A stretch of DNA of 64,000 nucleotides from a virus (lineage: Duplodnaviria; Heunggongvirae; Uroviricota; Caudoviricetes). Where the stretch lies: the IMG/VR virus record IMGVR_UViG_3300047445_000122. One strand, written 5' to 3'. The notes below the pieces were generated by a model that saw only the letters and a program-made list of their open reading frames with translations, did no database searches and was not told where the DNA came from. This document shows, in pieces, positions 2,761 through 38,696 of this stretch. Numbering within the stretch: the first letter of the stretch is position 1; each line of letters opens with the position of its first letter. Both the position numbers and the translations under genes were made by a program.

Positions 2761-3306
2761 TCATTGGTTGAACTCCAACTTGGTTTCATGTTCCAGGCAA
2801 TCATGGATGTTGGTCTCAGTGCACTTGGGCATGAGCTTGCTTTGTTCCAGCCTGAAGAAGCGCTCCAGGCGGCGGTCATAGCGGTAGACCTTCACACCAT
2901 GATCAAGCAGGTACTTGATGCCATCCCGGTCGCGGTAGTCATTCTCATACACGAAGCCAACCACGCCAGACAGTACCATGTCGGTTGCACATGGATAGCA
3001 AGCTGCGTGGGTACAGAACATGACGGAGCCTTCGGAAGACTCTGAGGACTTGCGCAGCTTGTTCAGGGCGTTGATCTCAGCATGGCGAACATCAGAGCGG
3101 GTCTTCAACCCACCATGACCATCGCACTCTTCGCAGACATTCGGTTCGCCGGGGAGGCGTCCATTCCAACCTTGGGCAACCGGAATGTCTCCGGTCTCGC
3201 CCTTGACGAGCAAAGCGCCCACACGCAGACGTTGAGCATGGGAGTTGGCAGCGTAGCAGGCCGCAGCGTTCAGGTGGGCAATTGCGTGGCGGGTCTTGAT
3301 GTTCAT
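2761..3306 (-). CDS. dCMP deaminase (cytidine/deoxycytidylate deaminase zinc-binding family)
   Basis: HAEINAL followed by CTHAACYPCA (HxE ... PCxxC zinc motif). Start reassigned to ATG 3306 (MNIKTRH), which has a perfect AAGGAAA SD; this creates an ATGA overlap with ORF 3303..3608. Confidence 0.8.
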   Translation of the reverse strand: MNIKTRHAIAHLNAAACYAANSHAQRLRVGALLVKGETGDIPVAQGWNGRLPGEPNVCEECDGHGGLKTRSDVRHAEINALNKLRKSSESSEGSVMFCTHAACYPCATDMVLSGVVGFVYENDYRDRDGIKYLLDHGVKVYRYDRRLERFFRLEQSKLMPKCTETNIHDCLEHETKLEFNQ

Positions 3307-3608
3307 GCGTTTCCTTTGTTGTCGTACCAGAAGGCATCGCCCTTCTTCAGTGGGTTGGGCGTGAGGAACCTGTCTTGGTGCCACTTCTGTCCATCATAGG
3401 TCCAGAAGATAGCAATCAGGGTACGGATACCGGGGATGACGATGTTGTATTGACCAGGTTCAGCAGGAGGGTCTTCAGCGCAGTCGCGTGGGCCGTTGCT
3501 TGGTGGGGCGGGTTCTTTCTTGCCAAAGATGGCATCCCAACCCTTTTGGTACATGGGAGTTGATGTGCGGGTGGCGATGCGGTCGCCAGTGATGTCGTTG
3601 TGACTCAT
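3303..3608 (-). CDS. hypothetical protein (101 aa)
   Basis: Complete ORF translationally coupled to the dCMP deaminase gene. A -10-like TATAAT (minus strand, 3641..3646) lies upstream. Confidence 0.45.
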   Translation of the reverse strand: MSHNDITGDRIATRTSTPMYQKGWDAIFGKKEPAPPSNGPRDCAEDPPAEPGQYNIVIPGIRTLIAIFWTYDGQKWHQDRFLTPNPLKKGDAFWYDNKGNA

Positions 3609-5699: not shown

Positions 5700-6710
5700 T
5701 CAACCGCGCAGCATCATCGTTTCTGCGGTGTCCAACCACTCATCGCCGTCCGTCTTCATATAGCTCGCCAGCTTCAGCACGGAGCGGATCGACAACTCAC
5801 GCATACGCTCGGCATGAGTAGACAGCCATTCGATCAGCATCTCACCCTCTTCTTCATTCAGGCCTTGCTCCGAGATCAGGTCAGAGGTGGCGATGACTTG
5901 CTTGATGCGGATCAAGATTTCACGGTTGGTGTGAACTTTCAAGTCCAGGTAGTTCGAGCGGGAGATCAGCGCCTTGAAGTGCTCCGACATCGTGCCGCCC
6001 TTCTCGATCACGCGGTCAAAGTCCTTGTTGGTGATGAAGGCGATGGTGCCTTCAAAATCAAACTCTTGAGGGATGCCGTTTTCCTCGAACCAGGAGGAGG
6101 CGGAAGGGTAGGACAGGTTGCGAGAGCCGGTGTCCAGCGCTGCCTTCAGGAAGTTCAGGCAATCCTCGTCAGCGAACACGGAGTCAATATCATCGAACAC
6201 CAGAACTTGACCCGGATTCGAGTGTTGGAACAGTTGGGTGTACAGGCCCAGTGGGGTGATCTTGCCGCGCAGGTGGGTGAACTTCTCAATCTCACGACCG
6301 CGCAGGGCTTTGTGAAGGCGCTTCTCCAGGGTGTAGGTCTTACCCACGCCTGGGGCTGCGGAAATGATCAGGGCTTTCACGGAGCCGGTCACCAGGCCTT
6401 CCACCATACGATCCATCACGCGGAAGCGCTTGGCGATGATCTCACCCAGTTCTTCGTCAGTCAACTCAATCGAAGCAGCGTGAGGCTGGACCATCGGGCT
6501 GTTAGCGCCGGTCATCTCAGCAGGTACGCCGTCAATCGTCATGTCCTTACGCCAAGCCTGAACGCCGATCTTCTTGCCGTCGCGGATGATGTACACGTAC
6601 ACATCGCGCTTGTTCTCCTTGTCGCCGCTGATGATTTCCACCAGAGGGAAGGTGCCGGTCAGTTCACGGCCATAGTAGGTTGCGGAGGTCAGGGTGATGG
6701 TTTTGAACAT
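5700..6710 (-). CDS. AAA+ family ATPase
   Basis: Walker A motif AAPGVGKTYT and Walker B motif VLVFDDIDS. Start reassigned to ATG 6710 (AAGGAAA SD), because the conserved promoter -10 at 6751..6756 lies inside the longer track ORF. Confidence 0.6.
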   Translation of the reverse strand: MFKTITLTSATYYGRELTGTFPLVEIISGDKENKRDVYVYIIRDGKKIGVQAWRKDMTIDGVPAEMTGANSPMVQPHAASIELTDEELGEIIAKRFRVMDRMVEGLVTGSVKALIISAAPGVGKTYTLEKRLHKALRGREIEKFTHLRGKITPLGLYTQLFQHSNPGQVLVFDDIDSVFADEDCLNFLKAALDTGSRNLSYPSASSWFEENGIPQEFDFEGTIAFITNKDFDRVIEKGGTMSEHFKALISRSNYLDLKVHTNREILIRIKQVIATSDLISEQGLNEEEGEMLIEWLSTHAERMRELSIRSVLKLASYMKTDGDEWLDTAETMMLRG

Positions 6711-6750
6711 GATGTAGTTTCCTTCAGTTGATATTGTTTCGATGAGGTCT

Positions 6751-6798
6751 ATTATACGCCAATTATTGAGCAAGTAAAGTGGTTTCGTAAAAATATTT
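6751..6798 (-). promoter_or_regulatory. conserved phage promoter for the AAA+ ATPase gene
   Basis: Minus strand reads AAATATTTT..CCACTTTACTT..GGCGTATAAT. -10 lies 35 nt upstream of ATG 6710. Confidence 0.55.
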
Positions 6799-6838: not shown

Positions 6839-7306
6839 TTACATCAACCAGAGGAGAGGTTGAGCCTTGCCCATCAACTTCTCGTTGAAATCCTCATCCC
6901 AAGGGAACTTGCCCTTGTCGTCAGTCAGAACCATTTGAAGGTAGACAGGAGCCGATTCACCCTTGTTGTAGTAGTATTCCAGACCCTGAACAGCCCAGTC
7001 ATCGACTTGCTTGGTGGTCAGCTTCTTGAACACCACCGGGAACCTTCCAACGTTCAGGGAGGAGGAACCGTCAGTGAACTTGCGACCGGACTTGATCTCA
7101 TCCACAGCTTTGTGAATCAGGTAGTGACCGATTTCCTGACGGACACCCATGACGATGATTTCTGGGTGGTCAAGGGTATCTTTCAGACCGACAGTGTAGC
7201 AGAACGGTGGAGTCATGGCGTCAGGATCAGCGAAGACGCCCATCACAGCAAAGCCATAGTCTGGGTTCTTGATGTCACTCTTGATCTTTTGTTGGATGAT
7301 GTCCAT
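6839..7306 (-). CDS. DUF4262-like protein (155 aa)
   Basis: Size and the CYTVGL / HPEIIV pattern are reminiscent of the DUF4262 family. Start reassigned to ATG 7306 (AAAGGA SD). Low certainty. Confidence 0.3.
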   Translation of the reverse strand: MDIIQQKIKSDIKNPDYGFAVMGVFADPDAMTPPFCYTVGLKDTLDHPEIIVMGVRQEIGHYLIHKAVDEIKSGRKFTDGSSSLNVGRFPVVFKKLTTKQVDDWAVQGLEYYYNKGESAPVYLQMVLTDDKGKFPWDEDFNEKLMGKAQPLLWLM

Positions 7307-7375
7307 TCTGTAGTTCCTTTCAGTTTGATCTCGCGGTATTGCTCGACCTGAAAAGATTATACTTGGTAACTTGAT

Positions 7376-7424
7376 AAAAGAAAAGCCCCTGAGACGAATC
7401 TCAGGGGCTTTTTCGTTACTTCGT
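7376..7424. terminator. bidirectional rho-independent terminator
   Basis: AAAAGCCCCTGAGA-cgaa-TCTCAGGGGCTTTTT. Confidence 0.7.
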
Positions 7425-7712
7425 GGCTCTGTTGTACGTATCCCACGATTCCTTGTGGCGTTCATACTCACGCACTACGTCCCGGAACCAGGCGGTCATC
7501 TCATTCACAGGGAAGCGACTGGCTTGACCCTCGTTGTACTGGATCCCCGTTCCCGGCGATTCCCAGACCCGCTTGTGGTACTTGAACTTGAAGCCAAAAA
7601 TCTTGACTTCCTTCTGAACATACAAGCGGACAACAGCCTTGGAGTATTCAGCAACCGTCCAGCGACATTGATAGTCACCCAGACGGCCTTTGATCAACAT
7701 GGAGTTGCGCAT
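7416..7712 (-). CDS. hypothetical protein (98 aa)
   Basis: Complete ORF, coupled to the upstream ACP-fusion gene, followed by the terminator at 7376..7424. Confidence 0.4.
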   Translation of the reverse strand: MRNSMLIKGRLGDYQCRWTVAEYSKAVVRLYVQKEVKIFGFKFKYHKRVWESPGTGIQYNEGQASRFPVNEMTAWFRDVVREYERHKESWDTYNRATK

Positions 7713-9070
7713 TACTTGGTGTTGTACAGTTCGCGGCCATAGGCCTGGCTGACATCACCCAGCACGATGTACTTACAGCAACGGCACTTGTCGAAGTTGT
7801 AGTCAGTCGGTACGGACACGATGTCGCGTGGATCGACCTTGACTTCAACCAGGCGGTCGCCGCCGCTGGAGCTGGAGAAGTGACGGACATAGCCCGGAGC
7901 ACAGATGTGCAGACCGTGGGAGCAAGTCACGTTGTCGCGGTCATCGACCTTGGAACGTGGCATCTCGACAGTCAGGCCTGGGTTGTTCTTCATCGTACCA
8001 GTGTACTTGTCCAGGTAGTTGTTGCGTACAACCTTCAGGGCGATGATGTCGCCGTCGCCGTCGATGCGGAGGCCAGTCTTGGTCACGAAGTTGAACAGGT
8101 TCTTGTTGACGCGGAAGGAATGGGATTCTTCCAGCTTCTCGAAGAAGCGGCTGAACTTCTCCAGACCCTTTTCATCGGAGTCTTCCAGGCAGCGCATCAT
8201 CACGCCAGCCAGTTCGGAGTCGATGCGCTTGCCATCGAACGTCACACCCTGGGCGGTCACGACCATCTTGCCACTGGACCAGCGCGACAGAGCACCAACC
8301 ATGTCGATCAGATCGTACAGCAGTTGCAGGTCTTTCTTGTAAATCTGGTTGTTCTGGACGTTGGCCACAATCGCGCTGATCTTGTCATAGTTCTTGTGGG
8401 TCTTGTCAATCTGCAGTGGAGTGCTGTCGCGCACCACAGTCAGAACTTGAGGCAGGACGATGGCCTGGAACGGCACCAGAACATCAGGCTCGGTGTCATC
8501 CGCAGCCAGGGAGTTGGTAGGCAGTTCATCGACCGCCTTCATGATGAACAGAACAGCATCCTTGACGGTCTTGATCTTCTCAACATCTTCATCTGGAATC
8601 TCGATGTCGAACTCATCTTCCAGAGCCATAGCCAGCTCAACGGTGTCCAGGGAATCAGCGCCCAGGTCATCGATGAAGTGGGATTCTGGGGATACATCAC
8701 CGGCATCAACGCCCAGTTGATCAATGATGACTTCGATGGTCTTGTTCAGGATGGTGGTGTTCAGCTCAGGCTCCGGGGCCGGAACGATCTTGGCTTCAGC
8801 CGGGATCGCCTTGGACTTGCGTGGCTTGGCTTCCTTCTTCGCCTTCGGTTTGCGCACACGCTTCGGCGCGGCTGCTTTCTTGGCCTTCTTGGTGGTCTTG
8901 GCCTCAACCTGTTCTTCGGTTGGCTTCGGTGCGTTCTCTGCTACAGCCCAGCGAGCCAGGGTGGAGCGGGAGATACCAACCTTGTCAGCCGCTTCCGACT
9001 TGCTCAGACCATTGGCCTGGTAGTTCTGGAAGCTGATAACTGCTTGGATTTGTTGACTCGTCAGAATCAT
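7712..9070 (-). CDS. multidomain protein: N-terminal HTH, Lys-rich linker, acyl-carrier-protein (ACP) domain, and a C-terminal 250-aa domain of unknown function
   Basis: Residues about 115..185 ([59 protein letters not shown]) match bacterial AcpP almost motif-for-motif, including the DSL phosphopantetheine-attachment serine. N-terminal [20 protein letters not shown] helix-turn-helix. Strong SD before ATG 9070. Confidence 0.7.
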
Positions 9071-9145
9071 GTAGTTATTCCTTTCAGTGGATAATACAGG
9101 GAATTATAGCGTCAAGTGGGTTCAACCAAGAACCCACTTACTTGA

Positions 9146-12058
9146 TCAAGGCATCAAGATTGACTTGGCTTTCTCAAGCGCCGCTTCAAACTCCAGGGTG
9201 TCCCGGTCAAAGAAGCTGCCAAACAACACGGCCTTGTACTGTTCCTTGATGTATTGCTCACGGAACTTCTTGAAGTTGCCCTTGGCATGCTCATACAACT
9301 CATTGTGGTAGAAGCGGCCTGGTTTGGATGGCTCGAAGCCGGGAGCGAAGGTGGTGCGCTTCGCAAAGTCCATCGCCAGACGACTTGCCTCAACCAGAGA
9401 CAGCTTCACGCCGTAGTGTTGGGCGTATCGATAGCCGAAGGCGATCACAGGCGGAATGTCATATTGATCGTGATGATACAGAGCACCGCCATTCTTCAGC
9501 GAGTACAATGCCATCTTCAAGTGCTTGTTGATCCGGGACGGCGGGAGGTTCGTGGACTCCTGGAAATTCAGGAACTTGGACGACCACACTTTCGTGTAAT
9601 AATCCTTCTTCCGCAGGGCGATGTCTGTACCTGGGCTGTCCTTGTAGGCATTGGCCAAAGTGAACGCCTTGTAACGGCGCTGGAATTGACGGGAGCCCAC
9701 TTGGTTGTAACCAACGCTGTCAAGGAAGTCGGACAGAGGTGTGATATTCAACTCATCCTTGTACTTGTCAACGTTCTTGAAGTTCATCGGAGTGATGCGG
9801 TACAGGTTGAAGTTCTCTTCAGCCAGGGAGGCCACTGTGACCAACAATCCCATGTTCAGGCTCATTGGGAACTCGCGTGTCAACTCCATGTCCAGGTAGG
9901 ACTTCTCAGACTTGCCGTCATTGTACAACAAGAAGCCTGGTTCAACCTTGTCTGTCGAAGCCGGGATGGCTGAGAAGGAACTGCGCTGGTTGTTATTGAG
10001 ATTGGCCGGGGATTGCATACCATACTTCATGGAGCGTTTCTCAATCTCCAGGATGCGCATACCGCGCACAGAGACCTTCAGAGGATCGCGCTCAGCCTTC
10101 GGTACAGTCACAGTGCTCAGGCGGATGATCTTGGGTTTGTACTCCAGGCTCTGGCTCCAAGCCTCATAGAAGGCAAAGCCGTCTTCAGTGTCGGAACGCA
10201 CCAAAACCACACGGCAACGCAGCTCCCATGGATTGAGGGTCAAGCGGTCTTGAACATCAGCAATACCGCGTTGCTCACCCAGGGTGTTGCGCATGATCCA
10301 AGTGATGCGCCTTGACATCTCATTGTCGGTATCAACATACACAACAATGTCGTTGTGGCGGAAGTGTTGGTCATTCACCGGAACTTGAGACAGGTCGGTG
10401 TAGCTACCGTAACTTGGGCTGACAGTGCCATGGCTTGGAACCACAGAGTGGGTCGCCCGGAGGACAGGCAGGTATTGCTTGACATTGCGCTTGAAGAGAA
10501 CGCGCTGGGCAGTCATGTAGCCGCCCTGTTCCCAGTCACGAACTTGTTCAGGTTCCCCAGACAAGGCAGCGAAGTCAGGTTCCCAACCAGCAGCCACCAT
10601 AGCACCAATTTGGTCATTGCCACGAGCAGTGTACTCGATAGAGCGGTTGGTGGTGACGACTTGAGTGATGCCGTTGACAACCACATCCATGGTATCGGTC
10701 TCAACTGAAACATCAACAGCCACGTGTTTGGTTTCCTCAACCTCACGCTCCATGTGAGGGAATGTGATCTTGACGTCCTGGGTGAGGCGGCGCGGCTGGG
10801 ATGCGTTCAACTGCAGCTTGCCGTTGACTGGCAAGCCCTTGGAGTTGATCACAGGCGGGAGGTTGCAACCCATGTCCATTTCCCACTCGACCTCCTTCAT
10901 GGCAAAGATCATCTCACTGTTCACGCCATGGTTGGTCCAATCGCAGTAGTTCAACACACGTAACAGACTGGCGGACAGAGTCTGGATGCTGGTGTCGTCA
11001 GTGACCGCTCGAACGTGGTTCTGTAAGGTTGGGATGAACTCCTCAACCAACTTCTCCAGGCGCAGGAGGATGTTGTAACAAGTCTGAGCGTCATACTCCA
11101 GCGCTTCCCGGCTCGGCGGAATCTCAAGGTCACCGATCCCGAAGAACAGAGCAAACACTGAGTCCTTGGCGGATGGGGAGAACTTCTCAACTTGGCGGAT
11201 GACCTCACCAATGCGACCGGACAGACCTTCCACATACACGCCGCTTTCCTTCAGGGTGTTGATGTAGTCATCTTCCAAGTCGATGTTGATCAACTGGTTC
11301 ATGTCCAGAGGGTAGGACACGCCGCCCATGTTGGCCAGGAATTGACCATAATAGCGAGACAGACCCTGGGAGTGTACATACTTCCAGTCGGTGCCTTCAA
11401 ACTTGATGTCGCCGTAGTTCTCCCAGATGTCAGCGGAGTTTTGACCCACAACGATTGGGCGCGGCTCGAAGAAGAACAGCTGCGCCGCGACAGAGCGCGC
11501 ATAGGTCTCGTAACGCCCAACGCTGGACGGAACCTTGTACGTGATGCCGTTTGGCTCCTCCGTTGGCTTAGAGCCAATGTGAACCAGCTTCGGGATGCTA
11601 CCCTTGGCACGGAAGAATGAGAAGCTGTGTAGCTGGCCCTCGAACCGGCTCTCAATGATGTAGGAGTCAGTGACGGCGAACGGCGACTTGGAACCCAGAC
11701 CATAGGCACCAATGGACATGTTCTCGTTCTCTTTCGTGGACTCAAACAGGTTGCCCAGATAGCGCTTGACGTTCTCGATGGACAGGCCGGTGCCGTTGTC
11801 GCTGATGATCAGCTCGTGAGTCATGTGGCTCGGCAGATGGATGTGCCATTGACCAGGGGCCGTACCAGTGAGGCGTGCGAGGTCATGCATTGCGTCGCGG
11901 GCATTCGCGCCTAGCTCACGCACCACCGCATCTTCCTTCTTGGTATACAGTTTGTCAATCATCAGGGAGAACGACTTGCCGTTCATCTTGGCGCCCATGT
12001 CACTGACGCCCCCGATGTTGCTAACTGTTACGACTGATTCTTGTTCATGTGTGATCAT
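9146..12058 (-). CDS. large GHKL/Bergerat-fold ATPase-domain protein (970 aa), function unknown
   Basis: N-terminal N-box ELGANARDAMHD, G1 box ISDNGTGL and G2 box GAYGLGSKSPFAV (Hsp90/GyrB/MutL-like). No toprim or topoisomerase active-site motifs were found in the remaining 800 aa. Confidence 0.5.
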   Translation of the reverse strand: MITHEQESVVTVSNIGGVSDMGAKMNGKSFSLMIDKLYTKKEDAVVRELGANARDAMHDLARLTGTAPGQWHIHLPSHMTHELIISDNGTGLSIENVKRYLGNLFESTKENENMSIGAYGLGSKSPFAVTDSYIIESRFEGQLHSFSFFRAKGSIPKLVHIGSKPTEEPNGITYKVPSSVGRYETYARSVAAQLFFFEPRPIVVGQNSADIWENYGDIKFEGTDWKYVHSQGLSRYYGQFLANMGGVSYPLDMNQLINIDLEDDYINTLKESGVYVEGLSGRIGEVIRQVEKFSPSAKDSVFALFFGIGDLEIPPSREALEYDAQTCYNILLRLEKLVEEFIPTLQNHVRAVTDDTSIQTLSASLLRVLNYCDWTNHGVNSEMIFAMKEVEWEMDMGCNLPPVINSKGLPVNGKLQLNASQPRRLTQDVKITFPHMEREVEETKHVAVDVSVETDTMDVVVNGITQVVTTNRSIEYTARGNDQIGAMVAAGWEPDFAALSGEPEQVRDWEQGGYMTAQRVLFKRNVKQYLPVLRATHSVVPSHGTVSPSYGSYTDLSQVPVNDQHFRHNDIVVYVDTDNEMSRRITWIMRNTLGEQRGIADVQDRLTLNPWELRCRVVLVRSDTEDGFAFYEAWSQSLEYKPKIIRLSTVTVPKAERDPLKVSVRGMRILEIEKRSMKYGMQSPANLNNNQRSSFSAIPASTDKVEPGFLLYNDGKSEKSYLDMELTREFPMSLNMGLLVTVASLAEENFNLYRITPMNFKNVDKYKDELNITPLSDFLDSVGYNQVGSRQFQRRYKAFTLANAYKDSPGTDIALRKKDYYTKVWSSKFLNFQESTNLPPSRINKHLKMALYSLKNGGALYHHDQYDIPPVIAFGYRYAQHYGVKLSLVEASRLAMDFAKRTTFAPGFEPSKPGRFYHNELYEHAKGNFKKFREQYIKEQYKAVLFGSFFDRDTLEFEAALEKAKSILMP

Positions 12059-12074
12059 TCTTGATTATTGTTCC

Positions 12075-12353
12075 TTATTGGTTAATGACCAGGATCGCCA
12101 GATTGACGCAGCCCGGATACTTCAACTCAGATTGTTTGGTGGGATGGTAGATCCAATTATCCACCCGCCCTTCAGTTTTCTCTACCTGGGACAGCTCGAA
12201 GGTCACACAAGCCCCGGTAAGCTGCGAGGTGAGGCTAATTTTGGTGTCCTGCGGGTCTTCCTTCGTGAAGTCGGTCATCTCAGACGCCTCAACAACATAA
12301 CGGCCAGTGGTCTTGCTAAAGTGAAACAGTTCGGAGGCAAAGATGAGATTCAT
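12075..12353 (-). CDS. hypothetical protein (92 aa)
   Basis: Complete ORF. Minus-strand -10 TATAAT at 12394..12399 upstream. Confidence 0.4.
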   Translation of the reverse strand: MNLIFASELFHFSKTTGRYVVEASEMTDFTKEDPQDTKISLTSQLTGACVTFELSQVEKTEGRVDNWIYHPTKQSELKYPGCVNLAILVINQ

Positions 12354-18854: not shown

Positions 18855-19460
18855 TTATTGGATTGTGACGAACGATTGTTCAATGAAGTCATCGTCCTCC
18901 ATGCCCAACTTATCTGCCATGCGACGCAGGAGATTCATGAGGCTGTTGGTATGGACGATTTGTGAGTTGTAAACCTTGAGACCTGCCAGCTGCTCTTGGA
19001 ATTTAGCAACTTGGTTCTTCAGACTCACGACCTCGGAGAGAGCCGAAATTATAGTGGATTTGGTCTCGAAAGTAAAGGAGCTGAGCTTGTTGAACAAGGC
19101 CTGTTCCTCAACTGTGATCGTGCCATAGATGTGGGCTCCCACAAAGCAAACCTCATCATACTCAAACCCCAGTTCCTCCAGCTTGCTGCTGTTCATGCTC
19201 ATCAGCTCGAAAGCCGCGTCCATGGTCAGCGGCCACAGAGTCCGGTCCAGGACGTTCACTTGGGCAACAACGATGTGTGTCCCGATGACGTCTTTCTGGT
19301 CGTTAGGCAAGATTCCGGCGGCTGGTGACCCGAATTGGTTGAGGTGGTGAGAAAGCTCAACGTACAAGCGTTTAGCCACCTCCTCGGTCAAGCACACGAA
19401 GCGCATGCTCAGAGTCTTCGCGGTCGGGTTCTCCTTGAAGTTCTTCACGTCGTCAAGCAC
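18855..19460 (-). CDS. hypothetical protein (201 aa)
   Basis: Complete ORF between the MazG-like gene and uvsX. Confidence 0.4.
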   Translation of the reverse strand: MLDDVKNFKENPTAKTLSMRFVCLTEEVAKRLYVELSHHLNQFGSPAAGILPNDQKDVIGTHIVVAQVNVLDRTLWPLTMDAAFELMSMNSSKLEELGFEYDEVCFVGAHIYGTITVEEQALFNKLSSFTFETKSTIISALSEVVSLKNQVAKFQEQLAGLKVYNSQIVHTNSLMNLLRRMADKLGMEDDDFIEQSFVTIQ

Positions 19461-20065
19461 AGAGCCTCCTCATTGGCTTTCACATCGACTCCCTTCATCA
19501 CGCCCTTCGCCACGCGCTCATGGTTGCGCTTGTTCTTGAGCATGTAGGCTTCATACAACTCATCGTTGTTGTAGCCCAGGAAGGCGATGCCATGTTGGAT
19601 GAAGTCGATCAAGTACGACATCGTGAACTTGGCTTGGGACATTGCCAACTTGTATGTGTTGGAGCGTGCCGGGCTGATGTCATTCCAGAAATGACGGTAG
19701 GCATCAGACAACTTCGAGTAGAAGTTGGGCTGGTCTGGGGTGACCACATAGCCGGTCGGGAGCGCTTCAATGTCGTCAATCTCGATCATTGGGTAGTGCT
19801 TGACGTATCCGGCGAGCATGAAGTGGATCACATCTACCAGCTCGAACAGGGCTGCTTCACGGTTGAAGACAGGCTTGCGTTCATACCACTTCCACTTCTC
19901 CGTGACTTCCTCCAGGAATTCAGCCAGTTCAGTGTCTGCGGCGGCGTTGAAACGCCAAGCGAATGTTGGGTCAGTTCTCCAGCCGTCGCCATTGTAAGCC
20001 GTGTTGAGGGCTTCTTGAGAACGGCACATGGAACGAATTTGATGGAGGGTCACGATATGGGACAT
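19445..20065 (-). CDS. MazG-like NTP pyrophosphatase (T4 gp56 dCTPase/dUTPase-like)
   Basis: KWKWYERK...ALFELVDVIHFMLAGYV parallels T4 gp56 KWKARYIEAQEK...EIKFELVDIFHFVLNMFVG. Confidence 0.65.
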   Translation of the reverse strand: MSHIVTLHQIRSMCRSQEALNTAYNGDGWRTDPTFAWRFNAAADTELAEFLEEVTEKWKWYERKPVFNREAALFELVDVIHFMLAGYVKHYPMIEIDDIEALPTGYVVTPDQPNFYSKLSDAYRHFWNDISPARSNTYKLAMSQAKFTMSYLIDFIQHGIAFLGYNNDELYEAYMLKNKRNHERVAKGVMKGVDVKANEEALCLTT

Positions 20066-20646
20066 TAGTAGGTCACGCCTTTCTGTTCAGCGAAGTGTTT
20101 GAAGAAGTCAAGGAACGGACCAGTGCCATCCAGACAGTTGTTGAAGGTCGCATGGAAGTCGTTGAAACCACGGATGTACTCCTCGAAGGGGTGTGGAGCG
20201 AGACCTGATTTGCGTTCAACCTTGATGATGGGAACGTCCAGAGGCTTCAACAGCTCCTCATACTCATCCTCAGTGCGGAAGTCAGTGATCACGTACAGGC
20301 GTTCTGGATTTGCGATCACAGCCGGCATCTGATTCTTGATGAAGGCACGGACGAAATACTTGGAGTCCACTTCACGTACCTTGCCGGCCACCAGGATGAT
20401 GTCCCGGCCTGTCGCGCCTGTGGTATTGTTCGGGTGTTCATACACCTTGTCTTTCTGTTCATCGGGCATGTATGCGTTGAACCAAGGGAACATAACCTGT
20501 GCCAGGTTCCGTACTTCATCACTGAAGGACAGACGGACAGCATTATGTTCCTTGACGAGGATGGAGGCAAGGTAATCCTTGCCCACCCTACGTTCACCAC
20601 ACAAACACACCAGATTCTTTCGAGCTGGGCGTGCGATGGTATTCAT
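20065..20646 (-). CDS. deoxynucleoside monophosphate kinase (T4 gp1-like)
   Basis: P-loop CGERRVGKD (T4 gp1 has GVKRSGKD) and the YVITDFRTEDE region (T4 has YIVPDTRQDHE). Translationally coupled to the neighbouring genes. Confidence 0.65.
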   Translation of the reverse strand: MNTIARPARKNLVCLCGERRVGKDYLASILVKEHNAVRLSFSDEVRNLAQVMFPWFNAYMPDEQKDKVYEHPNNTTGATGRDIILVAGKVREVDSKYFVRAFIKNQMPAVIANPERLYVITDFRTEDEYEELLKPLDVPIIKVERKSGLAPHPFEEYIRGFNDFHATFNNCLDGTGPFLDFFKHFAEQKGVTY

Positions 20647-20647
20647 G

Positions 20648-21724
20648 TTACTCCATAATGTTGAATTTGCGGAACGGCGACCAGGTCACGGCGCTCAGGA
20701 GGTCGCCTTGGAGGCGGCGCGTTACGCGGTGTTGGTAGATCACACCCTTCTTCGACAGGATATATCCATACACCAGAGCAGCGTATTCATACATCAGGTC
20801 GCCGTAACCGACAGCATAGCGATCAAAGATGTCTTCGATCTGGTTCCAGTGTTTGCCCCTCTCAGCTTCCAGGATTTCAGTGGTCTGGGTGATCATGGAA
20901 CCGTATTGAGCAATCAGCTCGCTGAAGAAGTGTTCCCACACCAGGTGACCGCCAACTGGACCAACCAGAGCAACATCATTCTCATGGAAGTTCTGTTTCT
21001 CCTCCAGGACAGCATCGAACTGGTCAATGAAGTCGCTGTAGACGTGGGCATTGGTGACGTGCCAGCGGTAGGAACCCAGCTTCACAGTCGGGTGGATCTT
21101 CTTCACCTCATTGTACATCAGCTCGTGGATGAAACTGAACTCGAATGGGTTGATCGAGCCAGTACCAAACAACAGGTCGCCAGAGCGTTGGATACACTTG
21201 GTGTGGAACTCACCATTCTCCACATAGAAGTGGAGCTCACGATTGCATGGGATGTCTTTTGGTACATGACCTTCACCATACACAGCTTCGATGGCTTCCA
21301 GGTTGTCGATGGTTGGGTCAGCAATCGTGACGAAGGAGCGGCGGGTGTTGATACCGTCATTGCGGAATTGATCAACAGCAGTCTGGAACTGGCTGTAACG
21401 ATGGAGGCGAGGGCCGTATGCGCCGTGCCAGGTAACTCCATCATCGCTGTAGTTCTTTGCGCGGGGCAGGAAGAAGTCCAGGTATGGGGTCACTGCGTTG
21501 GCTCCAGCCATGACCCAGAAGGTCTCAGCGATCAGCTGGAAGATGTTGGATTTGCGTCCGTGGAGGTGTAGGTGGCGGGAGCGGGGATTTTTGAACTCCA
21601 GCGTCGTGTCGTACATCGCCAGAGCGTACCCATTGCGGGTGTCTTGTTTGATACCTTCCTTTTGAAGGGCTTGGAAGGCTCGGTGGATTGTGTGTGAGAC
21701 GGTGTTGCCTCGGATAGTTCTCAT
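20648..21724 (-). CDS. ThyA-superfamily enzyme (thymidylate synthase or dUMP/dCMP hydroxymethylase) with about 90-aa C-terminal extension
   Basis: ThyA landmarks in order: RNGYA, ETFWVM, YGP, NTRRSFVT, catalytic PCN, QRSGDLLFG...N, AHVYS. The sequence continues a further 90 aa beyond the canonical fold. Confidence 0.75.
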   Translation of the reverse strand: MRTIRGNTVSHTIHRAFQALQKEGIKQDTRNGYALAMYDTTLEFKNPRSRHLHLHGRKSNIFQLIAETFWVMAGANAVTPYLDFFLPRAKNYSDDGVTWHGAYGPRLHRYSQFQTAVDQFRNDGINTRRSFVTIADPTIDNLEAIEAVYGEGHVPKDIPCNRELHFYVENGEFHTKCIQRSGDLLFGTGSINPFEFSFIHELMYNEVKKIHPTVKLGSYRWHVTNAHVYSDFIDQFDAVLEEKQNFHENDVALVGPVGGHLVWEHFFSELIAQYGSMITQTTEILEAERGKHWNQIEDIFDRYAVGYGDLMYEYAALVYGYILSKKGVIYQHRVTRRLQGDLLSAVTWSPFRKFNIME

Positions 21725-34892: not shown

Positions 34893-34970
34893 TGGTGCCC
34901 GTTGCACGGATTTGAACCTGCGACCCCACCCTTACAGGGGGCGTGCTCTACCAGACTGAGCTAAACGGGC
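34893..34970 (-). tRNA. tRNA, probably Thr (anticodon TGT)
   Basis: Perfect acceptor stem GCCCGTT/AACGGGC plus encoded CCA, and a D-arm TAGCTCAGTCTGGTAGAGC. Anticodon loop reads CCTGTAA. T-stem is imperfect by eye. Confidence 0.5.
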
Positions 34971-34971
34971 T

Positions 34972-35046
34972 TGGCATACCGGGATGGGATCGAACCACCG
35001 ACACCAGGTTTTGGAGACCTGTGTTCTACCACTGAACTACCGATAC
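34972..35046 (-). tRNA. tRNA-Trp (CCA)
   Basis: Manual cloverleaf: anticodon loop CTCCAAA, T-loop TTCGATC, encoded CCA end. Confidence 0.7.
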
Positions 35047-35228
35047 ATTGTGTTGTTACTTATACTGCTTGGCCAGAGCCATCAGACCCTTCGCAGCTTC
35101 ATCGCCATAGGTCTTGAAGAATGCTTCAGTGGTCTTGTCATAGATGCTCTTGGCCAGAGCTGGATTCTTGTCGTCCAGAGCCTTAGCCAGCTGACTACCT
35201 TTGGCGGCGTGCGTATCCTTGTAGCGGA

Positions 35229-35516
35229 TCACTTGATCACAACCAGGATGTCTTCGTTGGACAGGATCAGATATTCCACGCCGTCAACCTTCACACCCTG
35301 ACCGGCGCCACGCTTGTGGACGATCTTGTCGCCCTTGTGGAAGGGTTCTGATTCACGCAGAGCGCCGGTGCTGACGTGGGAGACTTCAACCACAATGCCT
35401 TCAGAGACAGAAGCAGCAGGAGCCGGGGCGACGATGATACCGCCAGCTGAGGTTTCAGGGGCGGATTCACGCGTGATCACGCAGTAGCCTGGAGTTGGCT
35501 TGATTTGTTTGGACAT
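35229..35516 (-). CDS. GroES-like co-chaperonin (Hsp10; T4 gp31 analogue)
   Basis: IVHKRGAGQGVKVDGVEYLILSNEDILVVI matches the GroES C-terminus. Start set to ATG 35516 (MSKQIKPT) with AAGGAAA SD, because the longer track ORF would run into tRNA genes. Confidence 0.7.
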   Translation of the reverse strand: MSKQIKPTPGYCVITRESAPETSAGGIIVAPAPAASVSEGIVVEVSHVSTGALRESEPFHKGDKIVHKRGAGQGVKVDGVEYLILSNEDILVVIK

Positions 35517-35534
35517 GGTTTCCTTTTGATTGAA

Positions 35535-35608
35535 TGGAGGCGTGTGGGTGAATCGAACACCCGTCTTAGGCTTTGCAGGCCCAGACCTAACCACTCAGAC
35601 AACACGCC
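35535..35608 (-). tRNA. tRNA-Cys (GCA)
   Basis: Perfect acceptor stem, anticodon loop CTGCAAA, T-arm GGGTG TTCGATT CACCC. D-arm is unusual. Confidence 0.6.
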
Positions 35609-35614
35609 ATTGAT

Positions 35615-35697
35615 TGGTGGGGATACAGGGACTCGAACCCAGACGCCGAAGCCGGAGCGTTTGAAACTCCTGTGTCTACCAATTTCACCATATCCCC
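35615..35697 (-). tRNA. tRNA-Leu (CAA), class II
   Basis: Anticodon stem GGAGT/GCTCC with loop TTCAAAC, and a long variable arm. Confidence 0.6.
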
Positions 35698-35818
35698 AAA
35701 TTTCAACACCATCCTTACGCCCTCGCCCATCTATCGTGACAAGTTAGCAGAACTTCGGTGCACCTCACTTCAAGCAGTGCTGGCTACGCTGCACGGACTG
35801 CCGAATGATGTTGAAATT

Positions 35819-35894
35819 TGGAGCGGGTGACAGGTCTCGAACCTGCGCATGCCGGCTTGGAAGGCCAGTGCTTTACCAACTTAGCTACACCCGC
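35819..35894 (-). tRNA. tRNA-Gly (TCC)
   Basis: Perfect acceptor stem GCGGGTG/CACCCGC, anticodon loop CTTCCAA, encoded CCA. Confidence 0.8.
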
Positions 35895-35896
35895 AA

Positions 35897-35972
35897 TGGC
35901 GCCCAGGGCCGGAATCGAACCAGCGACACGTGGATTTTCAGTCCACTGCTCTACCAACTGAGCTACCTGGGC
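35897..35972 (-). tRNA. tRNA-Phe (GAA)
   Basis: Acceptor stem GCCCAGG/CCTGGGC, anticodon loop CTGAAAA, T-loop TTCGATT. Confidence 0.8.
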
Positions 35973-36107
35973 ATTGAAGCGTTTTGCATGGAAGTAGACT
36001 TCAATGCTATTCATGGACAATATACGCTGACTAGAACTGTAGAGACAGGGATGAGAACGTACAATGCTGCTTCACCACATATCAGGGAGCGACCCAGAAC
36101 ATTCAAT

Positions 36108-36193
36108 TTGGTGCGAACGGAGGGACTCGAACCCATCACGCCTAGTGGCACATCCCCCTCAAGGATGCGTGTCTGCCAATTTCACCACGTTCG
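36108..36193 (-). tRNA. tRNA-Leu (GAG), class II
   Basis: Anticodon stem CATCC/GGATG with loop TTGAGGG, and a long variable arm. Confidence 0.65.
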
Positions 36194-36269
36194 CATTGCC
36201 CCGGAGCCTGAAGAAACCATCCGGGCAGACCTGCTTCAGATCAAGTCTGGGGAGCAACCCCGCTAGAAC

Positions 36270-36524
36270 TCAATTCAACAAGCGACTCAACAACCGCTGG
36301 CTCTTGTTTCCATGTTTGGGTGAGTTGATGGTGACGTCCGGGAAGTCTGACTTGTTGAGCTGACGCCCAATCCGAGTCTCAAGACAACCCACGCACAACA
36401 TACCAACTATCGACCCAACAACCTTCATCCACAAATCAGTGTTGATGAAGTAGTGCTCGTTGGCCTTGCCGGTGTCTACACAGCAATCCAAACACAGCCA
36501 CTTTCGTCTTGATTTACACGCCAT
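36270..36524 (-). CDS. small Cys-rich protein (84 aa) embedded in the tRNA array
   Basis: The CLDCC...CVGC pattern suggests a zinc-ribbon-like fold. No tRNA overlaps it. Confidence 0.35.
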   Translation of the reverse strand: MACKSRRKWLCLDCCVDTGKANEHYFINTDLWMKVVGSIVGMLCVGCLETRIGRQLNKSDFPDVTINSPKHGNKSQRLLSRLLN

Positions 36525-36541
36525 GTGACTCCCATATCAAT

Positions 36542-36618
36542 TGGCGCGCCGAAGTGGACTTGAACCACTGACCCTGGGATTAGAAGGCCCATGCTCTATC
36601 CAGCTGAGCTACCGGCGC
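36542..36618 (-). tRNA. tRNA-Arg (TCT)
   Basis: Acceptor stem GCGCCGG/TCGGCGC, anticodon loop CTTCTAA (one mismatched closing pair), T-loop TTCAAGT. Confidence 0.55.
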
Positions 36619-36629
36619 GGCGCTGTTCG

Positions 36630-37151
36630 TTATGGAAGAATTATAAGTGAGGAGGTCAGAGGAGCAGAAACTTGTACTTGCTTCTCAACCACAACGTAGA
36701 AGCGGGAGAATGCCGCTGCCTTCTTGGACACTGGATACGGTCGCCTCATCAACTGACACTTAACCTTAGTCCAGAATCCCACCTTGATATCCACCAATTC
36801 AGTGATGTCAGCGGCGAAGCGGAACAGACCTCCAGTGGTATCAGCATCCAACATCTTACGCAGTTGTTCGCCGCCAGGAGTGTTGAAGACTGAGATCAGC
36901 ATGGTCTTGTCATGATCCATCTTGGTGACCAGGAAGTCGGCATATTCACTCGACTTGTCCAGACTGCCATAGATCACATCCACGAGGCCGTATTGAGCCT
37001 TGGTAGGGCGCTTACCCTCTCCCAGCCATTCCACGTTTTGAGCTTCCTGGGCTTTGTTCAGGGCATCGATGGCGTCAGTGTAGTCCAAGTCTGCCAGTGC
37101 GCCACGAGGCTCGAACTGGACTTGGTACTCACCAATGATTTCTTGTAGCAT
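36630..37151 (-). CDS. hypothetical protein (173 aa) within the tRNA array
   Basis: Complete ORF flanked by tRNA genes. Confidence 0.45.
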   Translation of the reverse strand: MLQEIIGEYQVQFEPRGALADLDYTDAIDALNKAQEAQNVEWLGEGKRPTKAQYGLVDVIYGSLDKSSEYADFLVTKMDHDKTMLISVFNTPGGEQLRKMLDADTTGGLFRFAADITELVDIKVGFWTKVKCQLMRRPYPVSKKAAAFSRFYVVVEKQVQVSAPLTSSLIILP

Positions 37152-37231
37152 ACACGCCCTCTTGATGTTCGGAGCAGCCTTCCACTGAAGGAGGTCAAGG
37201 AAAGGAGGAAAACTTGACGGCTGCGGTTGAT

Positions 37232-37309
37232 TGGTCTCCGCGACAGGATTTGAACCTGCGACCCCTCGCTCCCAAAGCGAGTGCTCTACACGGGCTGAGC
37301 TACACAGAG
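37232..37309 (-). tRNA. tRNA-Pro (TGG)
   Basis: C1-G72 acceptor stem (typical of tRNA-Pro), anticodon stem CTCGC/GCGAG with loop TTTGGGA. Confidence 0.7.
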
Positions 37310-37506
37310 AATGTTAGGTGTCAATGCTGGATTGTTGTGGAAGGATTTCAAGTGTTATGCCCTTGTTCTCCAACATTGACGGGGATGGTCGGCAGACTAC
37401 CCTTATGTAGTGTGACATTCCTCCAACCGGACATATTCTAACGCATGTTGGCGTCTAGTCTATCCGGCGGAATGCCGTTTTGGTTTTAAACTACTGCCGT
37501 TTGATC

Positions 37507-37582
37507 TTGGTGGTAGGGGCAGGGATCGAACCTGCGACCTGTGGATTATCGGTCCACTGCTCTGCCAACTGAGCTACCCCAC
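37507..37582 (-). tRNA. tRNA-Ile (GAT)
   Basis: Perfect anticodon stem GTGGA/TCCAC with loop CCGATAA. Note C at position 33. Confidence 0.6.
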
Positions 37583-37597
37583 CGGGTTGGTACTTAG

Positions 37598-37685
37598 ACC
37601 ATACATAACAACACTCGCGCCTTCTCTGAACATGTAGGCACTGTAGTGGGTTTCTGTTCCTCAGGAGGAGTGTTGTTATGTATGG
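37598..37685. repeat. 18-bp perfect inverted repeat (CCATACATAACAACACTC / GAGTGTTGTTATGTATGG) with a 52-nt loop
   Basis: Seen directly in the sequence. The right arm overlaps the 3' end of tRNA-Ser(TGA) by 3 nt. Confidence 0.6.
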
Positions 37686-37775
37686 CGGAAATGGTGAGAC
37701 TCGAACTCACACAGCGGTTGCCCGCCCTTCAGTTTTCAAGACTGCTGCCGCTAGGCCAACTCGGCTAACATTTCC
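37683..37775 (-). tRNA. tRNA-Ser (TGA), class II
   Basis: Acceptor stem GGAAATG/CATTTCC, anticodon loop CTTGAAA, long variable arm. Confidence 0.65.
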
Positions 37776-37776
37776 G

Positions 37777-38296: not shown

Positions 38297-38369
38297 GAAG
38301 CACAACCCATATTCCTGCAATCAGCATGCGTTCCCAATGGATTGTGGCCGTTCTATCACGACTGTCAAC

Positions 38370-38447: not shown

Positions 38448-38454
38448 TTTGATC

Positions 38455-38694: not shown

Positions 38695-38696
38695 AG

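What the first reader, a model, noticed from the sequence alone, without database searches (positions are those of the whole stretch)
7712..9070. Phage protein fusing an HTH, a bona fide acyl-carrier-protein domain and an unknown Cys-containing C-terminal domain
- The internal segment [55 protein letters not shown] is almost residue-by-residue AcpP, including the DSL serine that carries phosphopantetheine.
- It is embedded between an N-terminal helix-turn-helix with a poly-Lys linker and a 250-aa C-terminal domain ending in a CxHGxHxC ... CRCC cluster.

I know of no described family with this ACP fusion. It could carry an acyl or other thioester-linked group, or act as an ACP decoy.
Basis: seen in the sequence. 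Interest (0 to 1): 0.8.

Follow-up and report, generated by a model that had tools for sequence, protein, structure and literature searches.

The report
rIIB protein with built-in ACP
This is the phage's rIIB gene, partner of rIIA in the classic T4 rII locus, and it carries a complete bacterial-type acyl carrier protein domain inside it; the fusion recurs in uncultured phages, appears undescribed, and gives a testable lead to the still-unknown biochemistry of rIIB.

Summary
The ORF at 7712-9070 (minus strand, 452 aa) is real and uninterrupted. The identical protein occurs on 10 contigs, including one of 165 kb. The ACP call is correct: an AcpP-type carrier domain (residues ~100-182) scores above curated thresholds and keeps the DSL serine (S140). 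The "unknown Cys-containing C-terminal domain" is the conserved core of phage rIIB (37% identical to T4 rIIB). The N-terminal HTH is a usual rIIB feature, and rIIA lies directly upstream. So this is an rIIB with an ACP inserted between its HTH and its core.

The fusion recurs. At least 13 proteins have the ACP before the core and about 19 have it after the core, all from unnamed metagenome assemblies. It was found in no GenBank phage and in none of 80 IMG/VR rIIB loci. ACP-free relatives are syntenic, which indicates repeated gain or loss.

All 13 ACPs placed before the core keep the serine. Seven placed after it have Glu, Asp or Gly there but keep the acidic helix II. My best reading (about 0.4) is that the ACP is a tethered copy of host AcpP used for docking. 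The main rival is a true in-cis acyl carrier. This is a new variant of known kinds, of moderate-to-high interest.

The parts
9146..12058 (-). rIIA gene (970 aa) with an N-terminal GHKL-type ATPase; immediately upstream partner of the finding
   Evidence: PHROG 612 'RIIA lysis inhibitor' E 8.6e-70; Pfam HATPase_c_3 25.4 bits; the same rIIA-then-rIIB order in related loci L002, L004, L085, L086, L087
7712..9070 (-). rIIB gene with inserted ACP (452 aa plus stop codon)
   Evidence: exact protein on 10 contigs with precomputed Pfam HTH_3 + PP-binding + Phage_T4_rIIB
8885..9070 (-). N-terminal helix-turn-helix module, residues 1-62
   Evidence: HTH_3 25.5 bits; AlphaFold helices 5-19, 24-31, 35-42, 52-62 at pLDDT 93-97; T4 rIIB gives marginal HTH matches at residues 7-50
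8774..8884 (-). Lys/Ala/Pro-rich basic linker, residues 63-99, predicted disordered
   Evidence: pLDDT below 50 for residues 63-95; pI 11.3, 14 K/R in 37 residues
8525..8773 (-). AcpP-type acyl carrier protein domain, residues 100-182 (pI 4.05)
   Evidence: predicted helices 105-119, 140-154, 160-163, 169-179 at pLDDT 93-98
8651..8653 (-). Codon of Ser140, the predicted phosphopantetheine attachment serine in GADSLD
   Evidence: conserved in 13 of 13 fusions with the ACP before the core
7715..8494 (-). rIIB core, residues 193-452. The conserved polar residues cluster in the C-terminal beta-rich part, ~340-445 (window 7736-8053)
   Evidence: PHROG 609/3803; 37% identity to T4 rIIB, E 9e-35; core-only AlphaFold model pLDDT 90.4; Foldseek probability 1.0 to many phage RIIB models; conservation table
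7416..7712 (-). 98-aa ORF whose ATG overlaps the rIIB stop codon (TAATG); probably co-translated; function unknown
   Evidence: also called by the public gene callers on independent contigs; no homologue found in the related loci
7381..7412 (-). Terminator-like hairpin (14-bp stem, 7 G-C pairs, T tail) that would end the rIIA-rIIB-orf98 unit
   Evidence: a consensus scan only, not proof of function

Best explanation
Shown: the gene is the rIIB of a ~165-kb T4-like myovirus distantly related to Delftia phage PhiW-14. It sits in an rIIA-rIIB(-orf98) unit. A complete housekeeping-type (AcpP-like) acyl carrier protein domain is inserted between the family's N-terminal HTH and its conserved core. 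Related phages carry an ACP either at this position or after the core, and close syntenic relatives lack it. The link between rIIB and ACP is therefore recurrent and selected, but accessory.

Inferred, most likely mechanism: the domain keeps the DSL serine and the acidic helix II that host AcpS recognises, so it is probably converted to the holo form by the host enzyme. It then acts as a tethered copy of host AcpP, that is, a docking or adapter (or decoy) module. It would bring rIIB, and with it rIIA, to a partner that recognises ACP, or saturate such a partner. The fused forms would do in cis what ordinary rIIB may do with free host AcpP in trans. On this reading the essential property is recognition of the ACP surface, with the prosthetic group or acyl state modulating it at most. 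The partner is unknown.
For: Identity as rIIB. Bona fide ACP. Recurrence in two positions: ACP before the core in the window, P0001-4, P0006, P0106, P0008-12 and P0120; ACP after the core in P0023-25, P0135, P0136, P0138, P0143-145, P0147, P0161, P0171, P0180, P0199, P0200, P0202, P0209, P0230, P0231 and P0241. Fusions are interleaved with ACP-free proteins in the leaf order of a rough core tree. Syntenic pairs with and without ACP: window vs L086, L085 vs L087. The sister lineage P0119/P0121 has an acidic insert that matches only part of the ACP profile in place of the ACP. Recognition rather than chemistry: seven fusions with the ACP after the core replace the serine by Glu (P0138, P0180, P0230), Asp (P0202, P0209, P0241) or Gly (P0135). 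Those tested by Pfam still pass PP-binding (32-45 bits against a cutoff of 20.8). Helix II (DxVELVMAxEDEF) is the best-conserved segment in both fusion types, and 'DLDADELD' recurs in four cluster members. No phage PPTase or acyl-handling enzyme was found among ~50 window ORFs, so any modification would depend on the host. Established knowledge, from memory: ACPs serve as non-catalytic subunits elsewhere, for example AcpP with MukB, SpoT and IscS, and mitochondrial ACP with LYRM proteins and complex I.
Against: There is no direct evidence that any rIIB binds ACP. AlphaFold gives no sign of a fixed ACP-core arrangement: pTM is 0.56 for the full length against 0.78 for the core alone, and no PAE was available. 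The serine is kept in 13 of 13 fusions with the ACP before the core and in most with it after, which also fits a true carrier role. Serine, Asp and Glu could instead be kept as the helix II N-cap, so Ser-to-Asp/Glu changes are not decisive either way. Most rIIBs have no ACP: 0 of 80 IMG/VR loci, and none of the ~2,800-2,900 GenBank records with an rIIB match aligned over at least 80% of any of the three fusion queries. The module has been lost repeatedly, so it cannot be central to rIIB function. The sample used for the census is enriched for fusions because the query contained an ACP.
Confidence: 0.4

Rival explanations
1. True carrier in cis. The holo-ACP carries an acyl or other thioester-linked group that is the substrate, or acyl donor, for the rIIB core. 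The core would then be an enzyme built around the conserved polar residues, and ACP-free rIIBs would use host acyl-AcpP in trans.
For: S140 and the AcpS-recognition helix are conserved in all 13 fusions with the ACP before the core and in most with it after. The core has an enzyme-like conservation pattern concentrated in one subdomain: H388, K428, R430, Y394 and G386 at 100%; C383 and R372 at 99%; C432 at 93%. ACP fusions at either end of a catalytic domain are typical of carrier-dependent enzymes (general knowledge). RIIB alone is toxic to E. coli (PMC10312443), which is compatible with enzymatic activity.
Confidence: 0.25
2. Host-takeover decoy unrelated to rIIB biochemistry. The ACP is a passenger that titrates host ACP-dependent enzymes (AcpS, fatty-acid synthesis, lipid A or phospholipid synthesis), and it merely happens to be expressed early from the rII operon.
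For: Free-standing phage ACP genes exist and are classed as auxiliary or host-takeover genes (PHROG 5934 and 4154; annotated phage acpP genes H90, H95, H99). The window's ACP is 61-66% identical to bacterial AcpPs, closer than to most other fused ACPs.
Against: A passenger would not be expected to fuse to the same partner repeatedly, at two different positions and in many lineages. No free ACP gene lies within 8 kb of rIIB in 80 IMG/VR loci, so there is no general neighbourhood from which accidental fusions could arise.
Confidence: 0.12
3. Intramolecular acidic module. The very acidic ACP (pI 4.05) masks or regulates the basic HTH and Lys-rich linker (pI 11.3), acting as a DNA mimic or autoinhibitor with no link to ACP biology.
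For: The charge contrast between the modules. Ser-to-Asp/Glu substitutions keep or increase acidity. The sister lineage P0119/P0121 has a different acidic insert at the same place.
Against: Fusions with the ACP after the core lack the HTH and basic linker in front of it (the rIIB core starts at residue ~3-10) yet still carry ACPs. The strict conservation of the full AcpP helix II motif is more than acidity alone would require.
Confidence: 0.08
4. Artefact: a frameshift, a read-through of adjacent genes, or a chimeric assembly.
For: None found.
Against: The frame is uninterrupted. The ACP is internal, flanked on both sides by segments that align with ACP-free rIIB relatives. The identical protein occurs on 10 contigs from several samples and two assembly sources. 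More than 30 diverged fusion proteins exist.
Confidence: 0.01

Closest known systems
Bacteriophage T4 RIIB (Pfam PF26926 Phage_T4_rIIB; PHROG 609/3803)
   Same: The core is homologous (37% identity over residues 212-444, E 9e-35). All family-wide conserved residues are present. Both have an N-terminal HTH. The gene lies directly downstream of rIIA.
   Different: T4 RIIB (312 aa) and all GenBank phage rIIBs examined have no ACP. Here an 83-residue AcpP-type domain and a Lys-rich linker are inserted between the HTH and the core.
Bacterial housekeeping acyl carrier protein AcpP (TIGR00517, PF00550)
   Same: The match spans the full ACP length and scores above the curated equivalog cutoff. The DSL serine, the acidic helix II and a predicted four-helix bundle are all present.
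   Different: It is an internal domain of a phage counter-defence protein, not a free 78-aa protein in a fab cluster. Fused ACPs evolve faster: mean pairwise identity is 50% (ACP before the core) and 38% (after the core), against 64% among the bacterial ACPs sampled.
RIIA-RIIB single-chain fusion of phage RB43 (UniProt Q56C47, 1049 aa)
   Same: It shows that the rII system tolerates and uses domain fusions; its C-terminal part matches this core (Foldseek E 9e-22).
   Different: That fusion joins the two known partners. Here the fused partner is a host-type carrier protein that has never been linked to rII.
ACP as a non-catalytic subunit or regulator (E. coli AcpP with MukB, SpoT, IscS; mitochondrial ACP with LYRM proteins and complex I) - from memory, not tested here
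   Same: It is a precedent for ACP acting through surface recognition, with the acyl-phosphopantetheine arm as a modulator. That is what the Ser-less but helix-II-conserved variants suggest.
   Different: Those are non-covalent complexes of free ACP. No such partner is known for rIIB or rIIA.
Free-standing phage ACP genes (PHROG 5934/4154; e.g. Brevundimonas phage Bajun, Burkholderia phage BCSR5, Acinetobacter phage MD-2021a)
   Same: They are phage-encoded AcpP-like proteins.
   Different: They are separate small genes, not fused to or adjacent to rIIB. No ACP gene lies within 8 kb of rIIB in 80 IMG/VR loci.

Membership tests
Phage rIIB (PF26926 Phage_T4_rIIB / PHROG 609) | Significant profile or sequence match to the conserved rIIB core | tested here: met
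   PHROG 609 E 5.6e-65, PHROG 3803 E 4.7e-54; tblastn to T4 rIIB 37% identity, E 9e-35; precomputed PF26926 for this exact protein; Foldseek probability 1.0 to many RIIB models
Phage rIIB (PF26926 Phage_T4_rIIB / PHROG 609) | Family-wide conserved residues present (G340, K346, R372, C383, S384, G386, H388, Y394, D416, D423, Y424, K428, R430, C432, Y434) | tested here: met
   All are present in the window protein; frequencies of 93-100% across 189 cores
Phage rIIB (PF26926 Phage_T4_rIIB / PHROG 609) | Encoded directly downstream of an rIIA gene (GHKL ATPase) on the same strand | tested here: met
   rIIA at 9146-12058 (-), with a 75-bp gap
Phage rIIB (PF26926 Phage_T4_rIIB / PHROG 609) | N-terminal helix-turn-helix | tested here: met
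   HTH_3 above cutoff in the window protein; T4 rIIB gives marginal HTH_7/HTH_28 hits at residues 7-50
Phage rIIB (PF26926 Phage_T4_rIIB / PHROG 609) | Function: allows growth on RexAB-type hosts / rapid-lysis phenotype when mutated | not testable with these tools
   Requires genetics; the host of this phage is unknown
AcpP-type acyl carrier protein (PF00550 / TIGR00517) | Profile match above the curated threshold over the full ACP length | tested here: met
   TIGR00517 91.3 bits against 70.45; NF002148 104 bits against 71; PF00550 52.4 bits against 20.8
AcpP-type acyl carrier protein (PF00550 / TIGR00517) | Asp-Ser-Leu motif with the phosphopantetheine serine at the start of helix II | tested here: met
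   GADSLD, S140; predicted helix II spans 140-154
AcpP-type acyl carrier protein (PF00550 / TIGR00517) | Four-helix-bundle fold | tested here: met
   AlphaFold helices 105-119, 140-154, 160-163, 169-179 at pLDDT 93-98. This is a prediction, not a solved structure.
AcpP-type acyl carrier protein (PF00550 / TIGR00517) | Actually phosphopantetheinylated and acylated in vivo | not testable with these tools
   Needs mass spectrometry. No phage PPTase was found in the window, so modification would rely on host AcpS.
AcpP-type acyl carrier protein (PF00550 / TIGR00517) | Free-standing small protein of the fatty-acid synthesis system | tested here: not met
   It is an internal domain of a 452-aa phage protein, and there are no fab genes nearby. 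It is an ACP domain, not an AcpP orthologue in function.
ADP-ribosyltransferase-fold enzymes (considered for the rIIB core) | H-Y-E or R-S-E catalytic motif in the right structural positions | tested here: inconclusive
   Conserved H388, Y394, R372 and S384 exist, but there is no invariant Glu.

The most novel reading that the evidence does not exclude
The repeated ACP-rIIB fusions are a Rosetta stone: host AcpP, or its acyl-phosphopantetheine arm, would be the long-sought biochemical partner or substrate of rIIB in general, T4 included. On this reading the conserved Cys/His/Lys/Arg/Tyr pocket of the rIIB core binds or chemically acts on (acyl-)ACP. That would tie the rII system's membrane-related phenotypes, its toxicity, and its recognition by RexAB and CARD-NLR gasdermin systems to lipid metabolism.
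Probability: 0.2. Interest if true: 0.9.

Novelty: new variant of a known kind. Interest (0 to 1): 0.62.

Why it matters
rIIA and rIIB are among the most famous genes in molecular biology, yet their biochemical activity is still unknown. The 2021-2026 literature I could read still calls the mechanism unclear or poorly understood. rIIB is now also known to trigger bacterial CARD/NLR-gasdermin immunity and to be toxic on its own. A domain fusion that recurs independently at both ends of the rIIB core is classical evidence of a functional link. It names one specific, abundant and easily assayed host protein, ACP, as a candidate partner. That turns an open question into a few direct experiments: mass shift at S140, an AcpP pull-down with T4 RIIB, and ACP-deletion or S140A complementation. 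If the link proves to be lineage-specific, the finding is still a new phage protein architecture that uses a host carrier-protein fold.

Tried and rejected
- Megablast of 7000-12100 against GenBank phages found no match. The phage has no close cultured relative; the nearest by gp6 is Delftia phage PhiW-14 at 45% aa identity.
- tblastn of the full protein, of the N-terminal half, of the ACP alone, and of two fusions with the ACP after the core (P0136, P0024) against GenBank phages found no record with an ACP joined to rIIB. The one promising hit, Vibrio phage P018-4, is an ACP at the N-terminus of an unrelated 186-aa protein.
- An IMG/VR scan returned 80 rIIB loci. None had an ACP domain fused or within 8 kb.
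- I searched ~50 window ORFs for a phage PPTase, acyl-ACP synthetase or fab/lpx genes and found none. The other ~100 kb of the genome was not available.
- An ACP-domain tree meant to count independent captures was unresolved because the domain is short and conserved.
- The 98-aa ORF coupled to rIIB has no homologue in the related loci.
- Literature searches for rIIB with ACP or phosphopantetheine, and for phage ACP with anti-defence, found nothing relevant. In the Vi01-like phage paper that mentions both, they are unrelated genes.
- A frameshift or chimera was rejected.
Full report

Yes. Window 7712-9070 on the minus strand is one uninterrupted ORF of 452 aa. It starts with ATG and has an AAGGA Shine-Dalgarno-like sequence 8 nt upstream.

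- **ACP segment.** Residues ~100-182 match Pfam PP-binding (E 6e-14, 52 bits against a cutoff of 20.8). They also pass the NCBIfam equivalog model for housekeeping ACP (TIGR00517, 91.3 bits against 70.45). The best solved relatives are type II FAS ACPs: 2l0q at E 4e-22 and E. coli AcpP 1acp at 72.6 bits. The GADSLD serine is S140, codon 8651-8653.
- **HTH.** An N-terminal HTH is detected (HTH_3, 25.5 bits).
- **Model.** AlphaFold2 with a 46-sequence alignment gives mean pLDDT 86.6. It shows three well-folded modules (HTH 1-62, four-helix ACP 100-182, a larger domain 193-447) joined by disordered segments 63-95 and 185-192.
- **Charge.** The first linker is strongly basic (pI 11.3) and the ACP strongly acidic (pI 4.05).
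- **Not an artefact.** The identical 452-aa protein is encoded on 10 public contigs from several samples and two assembly sources, including a 165,148-bp JGI contig.

**2. What the gene really is**

The C-terminal domain is not unknown. It matches PHROG families annotated "RIIB lysis inhibitor" (phrog_609 E 5.6e-65, phrog_3803 E 4.7e-54). It is 37% identical to T4 rIIB over residues 212-444 (E 9e-35). The precomputed Pfam annotation for this exact protein is PF26926 Phage_T4_rIIB. A core-only AlphaFold model (pLDDT 90.4, pTM 0.78) matches predicted structures of many phage RIIB proteins at probability 1.0, including RIIB of Delftia phage PhiW-14.

The 970-aa gene immediately upstream (9146-12058, minus strand) is rIIA (phrog_612 E 8.6e-70; GHKL-type HATPase_c_3).

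T4 rIIB itself gives marginal HTH matches at residues 7-50, and Iyer et al. 2021 (PMC7824862) treat rIIB as an HTH factor. So the HTH belongs to the family. The finding is therefore the rIIB gene of an rIIA-rIIB operon, with an ACP and a basic linker inserted between the HTH and the core.

A 98-aa ORF overlaps the rIIB stop codon (TAATG) and is followed at once by a strong terminator-like hairpin at 7412-7381.

The window belongs to a large T4-like myovirus. It carries gp6-like baseplate wedge, neck, gp15 and small-terminase genes, UvsX, DnaB, RNA ligase, thymidylate-synthase-like and dCMP-deaminase genes, and 20 tRNA genes. Its nearest cultured relative by gp6 is PhiW-14 at 45% identity. Megablast of the rII region finds no match in GenBank phages.

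**3. The fusion is a recurrent family, not a one-off**

Searches of about 5.8 billion clustered proteins and of 1.84 billion 50%-identity representatives recovered many rIIB proteins with a PP-binding domain. A local HMM census of all fetched proteins found 32 of 192 rIIB-containing proteins with an ACP. This sample is enriched for fusions because the query itself contained an ACP.

There are three architectures:

| Type | Architecture | Members |
|---|---|---|
| A | HTH, basic linker, ACP, core | window, P0001-4, P0006, P0106 |
| B | A different N-terminal region, ACP, core | P0008-12, P0120, on T4-like contigs |
| C | Core, linker, ACP after the core | P0023-25 and 16 further 50%-identity clusters |

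Close relatives lack the ACP and are syntenic. P0005 and P0007 are 60% identical in the core, and locus L086 has the same DnaB...rIIA-rIIB order as the window. P0017 (L087) is collinear with the fusion P0008 (L085). The sister lineage P0119/P0121 keeps the HTH and Lys-rich linker but has an acidic insert that matches only part of the ACP profile where the ACP would be. In a rough neighbour-joining tree of 189 cores, fusions are interleaved with ACP-free proteins in the leaf order. That indicates repeated gain and/or loss.

All fusion clusters I looked up come from Logan or ENA metagenome assemblies and carry no name.

No GenBank phage aligns over at least 80% of any of the three fusion queries, among roughly 2,800-2,900 records with an rIIB match. 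None of the 80 best IMG/VR rIIB loci has an ACP fused or within 8 kb. I found no paper linking rIIB with ACP or phosphopantetheine.

**4. What the ACP domains tell us**

All 13 fusions with the ACP before the core keep the DSL serine. Among those with the ACP after the core, most keep it, but seven clusters have replaced it:

- Glu in P0138, P0180 and P0230
- Asp in P0202, P0209 and P0241
- Gly in P0135

These variants still keep the acidic helix II (DxVELVMAxEDEF), and those tested still pass Pfam PP-binding (32-45 bits). The Ser-to-Glu form "DLDADELD" recurs in four members of one cluster, so it is not a sequencing error. Helix II is the most conserved segment in both fusion types.

Fused ACPs evolve faster than the bacterial ACPs sampled. 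Mean pairwise identity is 50% (ACP before the core) and 38% (after the core), against 64% for bacterial ACPs. The window's own ACP is still 61-66% identical to bacterial AcpPs.

No PPTase, acyl-ACP synthetase or lipid-synthesis gene was found among about 50 window ORFs scanned. Any phosphopantetheinylation would therefore depend on the host AcpS. That is plausible, because the residues AcpS recognises on helix II are intact. This last point rests on established knowledge of AcpS-AcpP recognition and was not tested here.

**5. The rIIB core**

There is no solved structure detectable by sequence. Across 189 diverse cores:

- Invariant: G340, G386, H388, Y394, K428, R430.
- Conserved at 93-99%: C383, R372, K346, S384, D423, N362, D416, Y424, C432, Y434.

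The conserved residues all lie in the C-terminal beta-rich subdomain (~340-445), a pattern typical of an active or ligand-binding site.

**6. How it most likely works**

Shown: rIIB identity, a bona fide ACP fold, recurrent fusion at two positions, repeated loss, Ser-less variants with a conserved helix II, and the absence of phage-encoded carrier-loading enzymes in the window.

Inferred: repeated fusion at either side of the core is classical evidence that the two modules work together. The module also survives without its serine in several lineages, with the recognition helix the best-conserved part. For these reasons I favour, at about 0.4, a model in which the ACP is a tethered copy of host AcpP used for recognition. 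It would be an adapter that docks rIIB/rIIA onto an ACP-recognising partner, or a decoy that occupies such a partner. The holo or acyl state, likely present in the window protein, would act as a modulator.

The main rival, at about 0.25, is a true in-cis carrier feeding the conserved pocket of the core. Serine conservation in all 13 fusions with the ACP before the core and the enzyme-like core favour it. The Ser-less variants and the lack of any recognisable enzyme family count against it.

Lesser rivals are a host-takeover passenger domain (0.12), a purely electrostatic autoinhibitory module (0.08) and an artefact (0.01).

Against all of the ACP-centred models: most rIIBs have no ACP and the module is easily lost, so it is accessory. 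There is also no direct evidence that any rIIB binds ACP.

**7. Comparison with what is known**

The protein is a member of the rIIB family. The core match, the conserved residues, the rIIA neighbour and the HTH were all tested and met. It contains a genuine AcpP-type ACP domain. It is not an AcpP orthologue in the functional sense, because it is an internal domain with no fab context.

Precedents for ACP acting as a non-catalytic subunit are cited from memory: AcpP with MukB, SpoT and IscS, and mitochondrial ACP with LYRM proteins. Phage RB43 shows a different rII fusion, a single-chain RIIA-RIIB. Free-standing phage ACPs exist but are not linked to rII.

**8. Novelty and significance**

Both parts are known; the architecture and the implied link are not described in any source I could search. 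I rate it a new variant of a known kind.

It matters because the biochemical function of rII is still called "unclear" or "poorly understood" (PMC10312443, PMC7824862, PMC13434031). Meanwhile rIIB has gained importance as a counter-defence factor against RexAB and as the trigger of CARD/NLR-gasdermin systems. The fusion nominates ACP as a candidate partner and makes this testable with simple experiments.

Interest is 0.62. The most novel reading not excluded is that ACP is the general partner or substrate of rIIB, T4 included (probability about 0.2, interest 0.9 if true).

**9. Caveats**

- The census is biased towards fusions, and the true frequency among rIIBs is unknown and probably low.
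- The neighbour-joining trees are rough.
- Some "ACP-free" proteins in the tree may be truncated ORFs. The ACP-free relatives cited by name in section 3 are full length.
- Only 64 kb of a ~165-kb genome was scanned for accessory enzymes.

Noticed in passing
window 34893-41519 (minus strand): A cluster of 20 tRNA genes (Thr, Trp, Cys, Leu x2, Gly, Phe, Arg x2, Pro, Ile, Ser x3, Met, Asn x2, Glu, Gln, Tyr), interspersed with small ORFs. A GroES/Cpn10-like gene lies inside it at 35229-35594 (Pfam Cpn10 E 7e-15).
   Followed up: no
window 7416-7712 (minus strand) and 7381-7412: A 98-aa ORF whose ATG overlaps the rIIB stop codon (TAATG), followed at once by a 14-bp-stem terminator-like hairpin. It is probably a third gene of the rII unit. 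It is also called on independent contigs but has no homologue in the related loci.
   Followed up: partly
window 6839-7471 (minus strand): The mechanically listed GTG start of the DUF4262 ORF (210 aa) runs through the terminator-like hairpin. Public gene calls give 155 aa starting at an internal Met, and the Pfam and PHROG matches begin at residue ~56-71. The longer ORF is probably an over-extension.
   Followed up: partly
window 19445-21724 and 2761-3384 (minus strand): A nucleotide-metabolism block: thymidylate-synthase-like (phrog_3676), dNMP-kinase-like, dUTPase_2 and a dCMP deaminase. The nearest cultured relative is Delftia phage PhiW-14, known (from memory) for hypermodified thymine. 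The phage might also modify its DNA; this was not examined.
   Followed up: no
proteins P0119 and P0121 (sister lineage of the window's rIIB): They have the same HTH and Lys/Ala/Pro-rich linker, but the ACP position holds an acidic insert that matches only part of the ACP profile and lacks the serine motif. It could be a decaying ACP.
   Followed up: partly
L088:4995-5555 (Vibrio phage P018-4, PP934186.1): A cultured-phage 'hypothetical protein' of 186 aa with an AcpP-like domain at its N-terminus and an unknown ~100-aa extension, unrelated to rIIB. This is another unannotated phage ACP fusion.
   Followed up: no
L002:3936-5984: In the relative that carries fusion P0003, vWA-TerF-like and TerC-family genes and a NAMPT gene lie just upstream of rIIA, with a GIY-YIG homing-endonuclease-like gene between them and rIIA.
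   Followed up: no
L085:2125-5661 vs L087:2985-4465: Two otherwise collinear T4-like contigs, one with and one without the ACP in rIIB, differ upstream of rIIA. One has a PIG-L, PglD-like acetyltransferase, DegT aminotransferase and epimerase cassette; the other has PIG-L and TAGT. These look like different sugar or DNA-modification modules.
   Followed up: no
protein P0201 (153 aa): A tandem di-ACP protein, two AcpP-like domains back to back, appeared among the representative hits. Its origin is unknown.
   Followed up: no
window 5700-6773 (minus strand): A conserved phage protein of unknown function (phrog_1250, E 2e-106) with weak AAA-ATPase P-loop matches, two genes downstream of the rII unit.
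   Followed up: no
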